From: Escherichia coli
GTDB taxonomy: Bacteria; Pseudomonadota; Gammaproteobacteria; Enterobacterales; Enterobacteriaceae
NCBI RefSeq assembly: GCF_045037415.1
Contig: NZ_CP173438.1
Length of the DNA: 64,000 nt
Reading direction: 5' to 3' (one strand)
Part shown: piece after piece, positions 40,363 through 41,091 of the stretch
Layout of the letters: each line of letters opens with the position of its first letter
Numbering within the stretch: position 1 is the stretch's first letter
The notes under the pieces: model-generated
What the model was told of the DNA's origin: nothing
Databases searched by the model: none
What the model saw: only the letters and a program-made list of their open reading frames with translations
Translations under genes and position numbers: made by a program

Positions 40363-41091
40363 ATGACCGTAACTCGCCCACGCGCCGAACGCGGCGCATT
40401 TCCGCCCGGAACAGAACATTACGGACGTTCATTATTGGGCGCGCCGTTAATCTGGTTTCCGGCCCCTGCAGCCAGTCACGAAAGTGGTTTGATTCTGGCT
40501 GGCACTCACGGTGATGAAAACTCTTCGATCGTCACGCTCTCCTGTGCTCTGCGGACTTTGACACCTTCTTTGCGCCGCCATCATGTGGTGCTGTGTGTGA
40601 ATCCTGACGGCTGCCAGTTAGGGTTACGGGCCAATGCTAATGGTGTGGATTTAAACCGAAACTTTCCGGCAGCGAACTGGAAGGAAGGTGAAACAGTTTA
40701 TCGCTGGAACAGCGCCGCTGAAGAACGTGATGTTGTATTACTGACAGGTGACAAACCTGGCTCCGAACCTGAAACCCAGGCGCTGTGCCAGCTTATACAC
40801 CGCATTCAACCTGCCTGGGTGGTCTCATTCCACGATCCGCTGGCCTGTATTGAAGATCCCAGACACAGCGAATTAGGTGAATGGCTGGCCCAGGCGTTTG
40901 AATTGCCTCTGGTAACCAGCGTCGGTTATGAAACGCCTGGCTCTTTCGGCAGTTGGTGTGCAGATCTCAACTTGCATTGCATCACCGCAGAGTTTCCACC
41001 CATCTCCTCCGACGAAGCCAGCGAAAAATATCTCTTTGCGATGGCAAACTTGCTGCGCTGGCATCCTAAAGATGCAATTCGCCCGTCGTGA
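40363..41091 (+). CDS. mpaA: Murein peptide amidase A (gamma-D-Glu-Dap amidase, M14 family), 242 aa, start at MTVTRP
   Basis: M14 zinc carboxypeptidase-like HGDE motif. Confidence 0.9.
   Translation: MTVTRPRAERGAFPPGTEHYGRSLLGAPLIWFPAPAASHESGLILAGTHGDENSSIVTLSCALRTLTPSLRRHHVVLCVNPDGCQLGLRANANGVDLNRNFPAANWKEGETVYRWNSAAEERDVVLLTGDKPGSEPETQALCQLIHRIQPAWVVSFHDPLACIEDPRHSELGEWLAQAFELPLVTSVGYETPGSFGSWCADLNLHCITAEFPPISSDEASEKYLFAMANLLRWHPKDAIRPS

What the first reader, a model, noticed from the sequence alone, without database searches (positions are those of the whole stretch)
41066..41091. Convergent 26-bp coding overlap of mpaA and ycjG
The two murein-peptide genes on opposite strands share their last 26 bp, so transcription of each must run into the other's coding sequence. 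This allows antisense interference or shared termination.
Basis: seen in the sequence. Interest (0 to 1): 0.2.

Follow-up and report, generated by a model that had tools for sequence, protein, structure and literature searches.

The report
Known mpaA–ycjG tail-to-tail gene overlap
Two E. coli cell-wall-peptide recycling genes on opposite strands do share their last 26 bases, but this is an already annotated, ordinary result of two genes abutting with no spacer, and regulation through the overlap is unproven.

Summary
mpaA (+, 40363-41091, stop TGA) and ycjG (-, 42031-41066, stop TAG) overlap by exactly 26 bp, stops included. RefSeq annotates the same overlap in K-12 and other strains. The junction is at least 99% identical in 5363 of 5414 complete E. 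coli genomes.

Comparison of 80 Enterobacteriaceae species and three further loci shows the genes almost always abut or overlap, but by varying amounts:
- 10 bp in 44 species
- 26 bp in 25 species
- 4 bp in 3 species
- single cases of 19, 21, 33 and 47 bp

The YcjG C-terminus (FTTGxLHL*) is conserved and its stop is fixed. The last seven MpaA residues are a variable read-in tail. A 1-nt indel separates the 26-bp form from the 10-bp form. A read-in null model gives a median of 47 nt, so 26 bp is not unusual.

No intrinsic terminator or known RNA family lies at the junction. Each transcript must therefore end inside the partner gene, probably by Rho or polymerase collision (inferred). A 2025 RNA-seq survey already lists ycjG-mpaA as a convergent "excludon". 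A regulatory effect is untested. It is also not obviously expected, because both genes serve one pathway and are listed in one regulon. The finding is already known and of low interest.

The parts
40363..41091 (+). mpaA coding sequence (murein tripeptide amidase, 242 aa), stop TGA at 41089-41091
   Evidence: ORF list; RefSeq annotation at identical coordinates in L087; PDB 5hxd matches residues 1-237.
41066..42031 (-). ycjG coding sequence (L-Ala-D/L-Glu epimerase, 321 aa), stop TAG as the complement of 41066-41068
   Evidence: ORF list; RefSeq annotation; PDB 1jpd matches residues 1-321 to the last residue.
41066..41091 (.). 26-bp convergent coding overlap. mpaA codon position 1 faces ycjG position 1, position 2 faces position 3, and position 3 faces position 2.
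   Evidence: Read directly from the sequence. The same overlap occurs in 25 of 80 species loci. The junction is at least 99% identical in 5363 of 5414 E. coli genomes.
41068..41088 (+). Non-conserved MpaA C-terminal tail K236-S242 (KDAIRPS), encoded opposite the conserved YcjG end T315-L321
   Evidence: The tail varies across 22 species (KDAIRPS, KDGVARS, RDEAVRS, KDGVDPS and others) while YcjG keeps FTTGxLHL. Variable columns fall mainly on ycjG wobble positions, which are mpaA second positions: 6 of 9. The tail is absent from the 237-aa MpaA of the 10-bp group and from the 5hxd chain.
41061..41075 (.). Small inverted repeat GCATC-CTAAA-GATGC spanning the ycjG stop; judged incidental
   Evidence: It appears in the + strand minimum-free-energy fold. 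It has no T-tract, and the arms are not complementary in the Citrobacter or Enterobacter junctions.
41252..41331 (+). C-rich, G-poor stretch (C 0.35, G 0.17) on the RNA downstream of the mpaA stop, antisense to ycjG; candidate Rho loading region (inferred only)
   Evidence: Composition profile. No experimental 3'-end data were available.
38443..40072 (+). Upstream genes on the mpaA strand: ycjY (38443-39363) and an intact SDR oxidoreductase (39434-40072); listed as one unit with mpaA (ycjY-ymjDC-mpaA) in the PgrR regulon
   Evidence: Annotation; regulon listing in PMC5934670.
42150..42656 (+). tpx, divergent from ycjG across a 118-bp spacer; part of the published 'noncontiguous operon' call mpaA-ycjG-tpx
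   Evidence: Annotation; PMC12288877 Table 1; p19 double-stranded RNA cluster S-116 over the whole tpx coding sequence in PMC7373196.

Best explanation
This is a spacer-less tail-to-tail junction between two real genes of one pathway. MpaA cleaves the murein tripeptide, and YcjG epimerises the resulting L-Ala-D-Glu. The conserved cores of the two proteins end within about 3 nt of each other on the DNA: MpaA at ...LLRWHP and YcjG at ...FTTGxLHL. Because there is no intergenic DNA, whichever frame lacks a stop at the boundary reads into the partner gene until a stop occurs by chance.

In the Escherichia/Salmonella/Citrobacter group a 1-nt indel just outside the ycjG stop put mpaA in a different phase. 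It now runs seven extra, unconstrained codons (KDAIRPS) to a TGA or TAA, which gives 26 bp instead of the 10 bp of most Enterobacteriaceae. Selection acts on the YcjG end; the MpaA tail is a passenger.

In function, the overlap is mainly a by-product of compaction. Its only obligatory consequence is that neither gene has room for an intrinsic terminator, so both transcripts extend into the partner gene as untranslated antisense RNA. There they most likely end by Rho-dependent termination and/or head-on polymerase collision. Some sense/antisense pairing follows as a side effect.

Shown here: the anatomy, the conservation pattern, the indel and the absence of a terminator. Inferred: the mode of termination and the lack of a dedicated regulatory role.
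For: - Overlap and annotation.
- Overlap lengths in 80 species loci: 10 bp in 44, 26 bp in 25, 4 bp in 3, 33 and 47 bp once each. Five loci have insertions instead, one locus is frame-disrupted and one lacks ycjG on the contig.
- The ycjG stop sits at locus position 3704 in the 26-bp form and 3705 in the 10-bp form, with mpaA starting at 3001 in both, so the two forms differ by a 1-nt indel.
- In Citrobacter youngae-type loci (L015, L018, L020) the roles are swapped: mpaA stops early and ycjG reads on seven codons. In L022 both genes are extended, giving 47 bp.
- In Pantoea (26 bp), Erwinia (21 bp) and Cronobacter (19 bp) the overlap is made by YcjG extensions instead.
- Variation inside the overlap follows ycjG codon periodicity and changes MpaA residues freely.
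- The read-in null model gives a median of 47 nt, with 72% at least 26 nt.
- Two of the 8 intact convergent pairs in this window overlap. Fifty-eight convergent overlaps have been reported in E. coli and attributed to stop-codon mutation (PMC2174442).
- There is no terminator-like site within the junction and no Rfam family.
- The RNA downstream of mpaA is C-rich and G-poor.
- Lineages that acquired a spacer carry an A-tract/hairpin/T-tract terminator in it.
- Both genes are listed in the PgrR regulon (PMC5934670).
Against: - The junction has stayed without a spacer across at least two families of Enterobacterales. This could reflect selection for overlap rather than mere absence of insertions.
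- RNA-seq places the pair among convergent transcript overlaps and places mpaA-ycjG-tpx among three 'noncontiguous operons'. Such pairs as a class show higher synteny than other neighbouring pairs.
- Two of the eight ycjG wobble positions inside the overlap are invariant in 22 species.
- No 3'-end, Rho-inhibition or RNase III data for this junction were available, so the termination mode is inferred.
Confidence: 0.68

Rival explanations
1. The junction is a functional convergent excludon. Transcripts overlapping at their 3' ends cause transcriptional interference and RNase III cleavage of the duplex. Expression of mpaA (from the ycjY-...-mpaA unit) and of ycjG would then limit each other, balancing or alternating two consecutive steps of murein-peptide catabolism. 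The spacer-less arrangement would be kept by selection for this coupling.
For: - ycjG-mpaA is listed as a convergent excludon in at least 50% of 58 MG1655 RNA-seq samples. tpx-ycjG is listed as a divergent one, and mpaA-ycjG-tpx as a noncontiguous operon.
- The abutting arrangement is retained in 74 of 80 Enterobacteriaceae species and in Pantoea, Erwinia and Cronobacter.
- No intrinsic terminator could prevent read-in.
- Abundant double-stranded RNA is documented in the neighbouring tyrR-tpx-ycjG region.
Against: - For a pair with overlapping coding sequences, the excludon call follows almost automatically once both genes are expressed (criterion described).
- The two enzymes act in sequence and are listed under the same repressor, PgrR. 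Mutual exclusion is therefore not an obvious benefit.
- The overlap length and even which gene reads into which vary between lineages.
- Five lineages tolerate a 88-331 bp insertion, and some of these carry a terminator.
- The junction is not among the top 20 p19-captured double-stranded RNA clusters; the cluster in this locus lies over tpx.
Confidence: 0.2
2. The junction is a programmed head-on collision terminator. Converging polymerases stop each other at the junction, so the overlap itself acts as a hairpin-assisted bidirectional termination site shared by both genes.
For: - Head-on and trailing polymerase collisions have been shown to drive bidirectional termination at convergent E. coli gene pairs (bioRxiv 10.1101/2022.10.23.513370, abstract).
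- The + strand RNA around the junction folds somewhat better than shuffled sequence (z = -2.15) and includes a 5-bp hairpin over the ycjG stop.
Against: - That mechanism requires a defined stem-loop terminator element between the genes. Here the - strand fold is no better than shuffles (z = 0.05).
- No hairpin with a T-tract is found.
- The small hairpin is not conserved in Citrobacter or Enterobacter.
- Both genes are weakly expressed, repressed genes (my own knowledge), so collisions should be rare.
Confidence: 0.07
3. The overlap is an annotation or sequencing artefact: a wrong stop or frame removes the real gap between the genes.
For: None found. The deposited MpaA crystal chain ends at residue 237, five residues before the annotated end.
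Against: - Stop codons are fixed by frames that are verified to residue 321 of YcjG and residue 237 of MpaA by PDB sequences. Even residue 237 (41071-41073) lies inside ycjG.
- The junction sequence is the same in over 5300 genomes.
- The overlap is present in independent assemblies of 74 other species.
Confidence: 0.01

Closest known systems
Short convergent (tail-to-tail) coding overlaps of prokaryotic genomes, arising by stop-codon loss or shift (Lillo and Krakauer 2007, PMC2174442)
   Same: The genes are on opposite strands and each stop codon lies inside the partner gene. The overlap is short. Its phase (123:132) is the commonest among convergent overlaps of 5 nt or more (49% in that survey). 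Its origin is explicable by an indel or stop shift. It is one of about 58 such pairs reported in E. coli.
   Different: Nothing essential differs. It is longer than the modal 4-bp class (CTAA/TTAA/CTAG/TTAG). It is unusual only in joining two consecutive enzymes of one pathway.
Convergent excludons (overlapping 3' transcript ends of neighbouring genes; ExcludonFinder, PMC12288877)
   Same: The pair is explicitly listed there as ycjG-mpaA. The intergenic distance is effectively negative, and transcripts necessarily overlap.
   Different: Classical excludons overlap in untranslated regions and show opposing expression. Here the overlap is within coding sequence, the genes are listed in one regulon, and opposing expression has not been shown.
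Bidirectional intrinsic terminators between convergent genes, such as the hairpin in the 43-bp tpx/tyrR spacer of this same window (42660-42694)
   Same: The position is the same: the meeting point of two convergent transcription units.
   Different: The mpaA/ycjG junction has no spacer, no GC-rich hairpin and no flanking A- or T-tracts. Lineages with an inserted spacer do have such a terminator.
Noncontiguous operons (Saenz-Lahoya et al. 2019, as cited in PMC12288877)
   Same: mpaA and tpx lie on one strand and are separated by the oppositely oriented ycjG. The trio is listed as one of three E. coli cases.
   Different: A continuous mpaA-to-tpx transcript across about 1 kb of antisense ycjG was not shown in the text I could read. 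The antisense stretch is C-rich, which would favour Rho termination. Published double-stranded RNA data instead implicate a tyrR-to-ycjG read-through across tpx.

Membership tests
Convergent overlapping protein-coding gene pair | Two coding sequences on opposite strands whose 3' ends share nucleotides, with each stop codon inside the other coding sequence | tested here: met
   TGA at 41089-41091 lies inside ycjG. The complement of TAG at 41066-41068 lies inside mpaA.
Convergent overlapping protein-coding gene pair | Both frames encode real proteins rather than spurious ORFs | tested here: met
   PDB 5hxd (MpaA) and 1jpd (YcjG) match at E = 1e-165 and 2e-209. Orthologues are present in 80 species.
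Convergent overlapping protein-coding gene pair | Overlap conserved in related genomes | tested here: met
   An overlap is present in 74 of 80 species loci and in three further loci, but with variable length from 4 to 47 bp.
Convergent excludon | Overlapping sense/antisense transcripts from the two neighbouring genes in vivo | not testable with these tools
   Reported by others: listed in at least 50% of 58 RNA-seq samples (PMC12288877). No expression data can be analysed here.
Convergent excludon | Mutually exclusive or opposing expression of the two genes | not testable with these tools
   No data exist for this pair. The listing of both genes in the PgrR regulon argues for co-expression rather than exclusion.
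Convergent excludon | RNase III-processed double-stranded RNA at the overlap | not testable with these tools
   The top-20 table of p19-captured clusters shows a cluster over tyrR-tpx-ycjG and none at the ycjG/mpaA junction. The full cluster list was not available.
Bidirectional intrinsic terminator | GC-rich stem-loop flanked by an A-tract upstream and a T-tract downstream, between or within the 3' ends | tested here: not met
   No terminator-like site was found between 40050 and 42064 on either strand. Fold z-scores are -2.15 (+) and 0.05 (-) with no U-tract. There is no Rfam hit.
Rho-dependent terminator downstream of each stop | Untranslated, C-rich and G-poor RNA stretch (rut-like) downstream of the stop codon | tested here: inconclusive
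   On the + strand the C/G ratio reaches 2.0 at 160-240 nt past the mpaA stop. On the - strand the first 160 nt are G-rich and the ratio is 1.3-1.8 further on. Composition alone does not prove Rho action.
Noncontiguous operon | A single transcript joining two same-strand genes across an oppositely oriented middle gene | not testable with these tools
   The trio is listed as mpaA-ycjG-tpx. The listing appears to derive from combining the convergent and divergent overlap calls. No long-read evidence for this trio was readable.

The most novel reading that the evidence does not exclude
The spacer-less mpaA/ycjG junction, kept for the whole history of Enterobacteriaceae and Erwiniaceae, is maintained by selection as a terminator-free coupling device. 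Read-in transcription and RNA duplex formation would set the ratio of two consecutive murein-peptide catabolic enzymes. Together with tpx and tyrR, this would form a four-gene interleaved antisense unit.
Probability: 0.12. Interest if true: 0.35.

Novelty: already known. Interest (0 to 1): 0.1.

Why it matters
It matters little beyond tidy annotation. The overlap is in the reference annotation, and the pair is already catalogued among E. coli transcript overlaps.

The comparative result adds a small, clean illustration of how convergent overlaps arise and drift. A 1-nt indel changes phase and lengthens the overlap from 10 to 26 bp. The conserved end of one protein dictates a free-floating tail on the other.

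If the overlap were shown to tune the two enzymes, it would be an example of antisense coupling within one pathway rather than between antagonistic functions. Nothing here points strongly that way.

Tried and rejected
- **Intrinsic or bidirectional terminator at the junction.** Pattern scan and folding of both strands found none. The 5-bp hairpin over the ycjG stop is not conserved.
- **Known RNA family.** An Rfam scan of 39300-44400 at E up to 1 found nothing.
- **Annotation artefact.** Rejected by PDB sequence matches and by population-level and cross-species identity.
- **Special overlap length.** Rejected by the read-in null model and by the length variation among lineages.
- **Dual purifying selection on both frames within the overlap.** Rejected, because substitutions follow ycjG periodicity and alter MpaA residues.
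- **ExcludonFinder supplementary tables.** I looked for overlap length and nanopore support for this pair, but the tables are not held.
- **3'-end or Rho data for the locus.** Literature searches found none.
- **Small ORF inserted between the genes in four species.** An NCBIfam search found no family.
- **Relatives more distant than about 72% MpaA identity.** These were not examined. The protein search lists only the best 120 hits, and the single genome scan kept only the best 80.

Full report
**1. Observation**

The window is E. coli chromosome. Window coordinates coincide with locus L087 of strain EC22. mpaA runs on the + strand from 40363 to 41091 and ends ...CAT CCT AAA GAT GCA ATT CGC CCG TCG TGA. 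ycjG runs on the - strand from 42031 to 41066 and ends ...GGC GAA TTG CAT CTT TAG.

RefSeq annotates the same overlap in strain EC22, in K-12 MG1655 (ycjG 1388930-1389895, mpaA complement 1389870-1390598) and in strain 08_3323. The locus is present in 5413 of 5426 complete E. coli genomes. A 106-nt probe centred on the junction is at least 99% identical in 5363 of 5414 genomes.

Both frames are verified by solved structures. The YcjG translation matches 1jpd to its last residue. MpaA matches 5hxd over residues 1-237. Residue 237 (41071-41073) already lies inside ycjG, so the overlap cannot be an annotation artefact, and no reassignment of start codons can affect it.

**2. Is it more than chance?**

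The length is not. I read antisense frames into the 3' ends of 39 long ORFs of this window. In the phase class of a 26-bp overlap, the first stop is met after a median of 47 nt (quartiles 23-90), and 72% of cases are 26 nt or longer.

Convergent coding overlaps are also not rare. Among the 8 intact convergent pairs annotated in this window, 2 overlap: hslJ/ydbJ by 4 bp and mpaA/ycjG by 26 bp. A survey counted 58 convergent overlaps in E. coli and attributed them to stop-codon mutation (PMC2174442). The phase here pairs mpaA codon positions 1, 2, 3 with ycjG positions 1, 3, 2. This is the commonest phase among convergent overlaps of 5 nt or more in that survey (49%).

**3. Comparative anatomy**

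One scan of species-representative genomes returned 80 Enterobacteriaceae loci. I located both stops in each locus.

| Overlap | Loci | Where |
|---|---|---|
| 10 bp (TCAnnnnTGA) | 44 | Enterobacter, Klebsiella/Raoultella, Kluyvera, Leclercia, Lelliottia, Kosakonia, Trabulsiella, Yokenella and others |
| 26 bp | 25 | Escherichia, Salmonella, Citrobacter |
| 4 bp | 3 | L044, L051, L063 |
| 33 bp | 1 | L059 |
| 47 bp | 1 | L022 |
| No overlap (88-331 bp inserted) | 5 | L041, L043, L046, L049, L053 |
| ycjG frame disrupted | 1 | L013 |
| ycjG not on contig | 1 | L072 |

Beyond these, Pantoea has 26 bp, Erwinia 21 bp and Cronobacter 19 bp.

The YcjG end ...F-T-T-G-x-L-H-L-stop is conserved throughout the 80 Enterobacteriaceae loci, and its stop does not move. 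MpaA is conserved only to ...L-L-R-W-(H/Q)-P. In the 10-bp group it then ends QR-stop (237 aa). In the 26-bp group it continues K/R-D-x-x-x-x-S-stop.

With mpaA starting at locus position 3001 in both groups, the ycjG stop sits at 3705 in the 10-bp group and 3704 in the 26-bp group. A single-base indel between the Trp codon and the ycjG stop therefore shifted the mpaA frame past the ATGA stop to the next stop 16 nt further on.

Other lineages show other solutions. In the Citrobacter youngae group mpaA stops early (...RWHP-stop), while ycjG has lost its TAG and reads seven more codons. In Pantoea, Erwinia and Cronobacter it is YcjG that carries the extension.

Within the 22 standard 26-bp species, variable alignment columns are distributed as follows:
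- 6 of 9 at ycjG third positions, which are mpaA second positions
- 2 of 9 at ycjG second positions
- 3 of 8 at ycjG first positions

Substitutions thus behave as synonymous or conservative for YcjG and freely change the MpaA tail (KDAIRPS, KDGVARS, RDEAVRS, KDGVDPS and others). The MpaA tail is a passenger. This fits with the tail being absent from the 237-aa orthologues and from the crystallised 237-residue chain.

**4. Signals at the junction**

- No terminator-like site lies between 40050 and 42064 on either strand.
- The + strand RNA around the junction folds slightly better than shuffles (z = -2.15). The fold includes a 5-bp hairpin, GCATC-CTAAA-GATGC, over the ycjG stop. The - strand does not fold better than shuffles (z = 0.05). 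The hairpin is not conserved outside Escherichia.
- Rfam finds nothing in 39300-44400.
- Downstream of the mpaA stop, the + strand RNA (antisense to ycjG) is C-rich and G-poor, with a C/G ratio up to 2.0 at 160-240 nt and 2.2-2.3 at about 780-900 nt. Downstream of the ycjG stop, the - strand RNA is G-rich for about 160 nt and then moderately C-rich. This is compatible with Rho loading on untranslated read-in RNA, but it is only composition.
- By contrast, the four lineages with a roughly 300-bp insertion carry an A-tract/hairpin/T-tract terminator plus a small ORF there.
- The neighbouring tpx/tyrR pair has a 43-bp spacer holding a perfect palindrome with 15-bp arms.

**5. What is published**

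- ExcludonFinder (PMC12288877) defines transcript ends by a 50% coverage drop. It lists ycjG-mpaA among 165 convergent excludons found in at least 50% of 58 MG1655 RNA-seq samples. It also lists tpx-ycjG among 16 divergent ones and mpaA-ycjG-tpx among three noncontiguous operons. For a pair whose coding sequences overlap, that call follows almost automatically once both genes are expressed. The paper reports no pair-specific test.
- The p19 study (PMC7373196) found one of its 20 most abundant double-stranded RNA clusters over the whole tpx coding sequence. It discussed a tyrR-to-ycjG read-through as the antisense partner. The ycjG/mpaA junction is not in that top-20 table.
- The PgrR regulon as listed in PMC5934670 contains ycjG, ycjXF-tyrR and ycjY-ymjDC-mpaA. 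Both overlapping genes are therefore reported targets of one repressor.
- From established knowledge of the pathway (my own knowledge, consistent with the product names): MpaA releases L-Ala-D-Glu from the murein tripeptide, and YcjG epimerises it. The two are consecutive steps.

**6. Interpretation**

The best-supported reading (about 0.68) is a by-product of a spacer-less junction. The overlap exists because the conserved ends of two convergent genes abut. Its length and composition drift by stop shifts and indels, and only YcjG's end is under selection. The one unavoidable consequence is that termination of each transcript must occur inside the partner gene. Rho and/or polymerase collision are the likely means, but this is inferred.

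A dedicated excludon-type regulatory role (about 0.2) is not excluded. The spacer-less state is old, and transcript overlap has been reported. It is weakened by four points: the co-regulation and shared pathway of the two genes, the variability of the overlap, the tolerated insertions, and the lack of any pair-specific expression evidence.

A programmed collision terminator (about 0.07) lacks the required conserved stem-loop. An artefact is excluded.

**7. Verdict**

Read-in is certain, antisense interference is possible but unproven, and there is no shared intrinsic terminator. The feature is already in the reference annotation and in a published catalogue of transcript overlaps, so it is already known and of low interest (0.1). 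The only new element is the small evolutionary account of how the 26-bp form arose from the 10-bp form.

Noticed in passing
window 12638-12641: A second convergent coding overlap in the window: hslJ (+, ends 12641) and ydbJ (-, ends 12638) share 4 bp. The pair ydbJ-hslJ also appears in the published excludon list.
   Followed up: partly
window 39434-40072: An intact 212-aa SDR-family oxidoreductase lies between ycjY and mpaA. K-12 MG1655 has only the fragments ymjC (183 bp) and ymjD (66 bp) at this position, so K-12 carries a degraded copy.
   Followed up: partly
L043 3727-4038; L046 3730-4013; L049 3727-4029; L053 3727-4057: Four species have 284-331 bp inserted between mpaA and ycjG. The insert carries a small ORF on the ycjG strand (39 aa in L043, MIEWEDESVATQDELMKRMIDTVAAVVLVLIVVAGLYFA, with a hydrophobic C-terminal half). 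In L043, L046 and L049 it also carries an A-tract/hairpin/T-tract terminator. The ORF has no NCBIfam match.
   Followed up: partly
L041 3727-3814; L053 3727-3830: REP-like palindromic sequence (…GTAGGTCCGGTAAGCGCCAGCGCCACCGGGCA…) is inserted at the mpaA/ycjG junction. This separates the two genes by 88 bp in L041.
   Followed up: no
window 42660-42694: A perfect palindrome with 15-bp arms (AATATGCCTGATGGT ATTGC ACCATCAGGCATATT) fills most of the 43-bp spacer between the convergent tpx and tyrR. It is a likely shared hairpin terminator with weak U-tracts, and the pattern scan missed it. Published double-stranded RNA over all of tpx suggests it is leaky.
   Followed up: partly
H1, NZ_CM190137.1 2619418-2622571: In E. 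coli strain 22872 the locus is otherwise 100% identical to the window, but an IS3-family ISEc52 element splits mpaA into two annotated pieces.
   Followed up: no
L049 (CACSKA010000006.1): The record is titled Chryseobacterium sp. 18061, yet the contig carries an Enterobacteriaceae-type mpaA-ycjG locus. MpaA is 86% identical to E. coli's and the locus is nearly the same as L043. This is probably a mislabelled or contaminated assembly.
   Followed up: no
L013 (Citrobacter koseri NCTC10786) 2004-2583: The ycjG homologous sequence continues directly after the mpaA stop but is frame-disrupted; the best protein match is only 52% identical and starts 580 bp away. This is either a pseudogene or indel errors in the assembly.
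   Followed up: no
H13, NZ_AP018488.1 (O157:H7 PV15-279) 1781993-1782098: The junction is 100% identical, but the gene under it is annotated 'enolase C-terminal domain-like protein' rather than ycjG. This suggests a truncated or disrupted ycjG in this O157:H7 strain.
   Followed up: no
L083-L085 (Pantoea, Erwinia, Cronobacter): In these genera mppA lies directly upstream of mpaA and divergent from it. The pgrR-ycjY-SDR block found in E. coli between mppA and mpaA (window 37406-40072) is absent from the 156-249 bp spacer between mppA and mpaA there.
   Followed up: no
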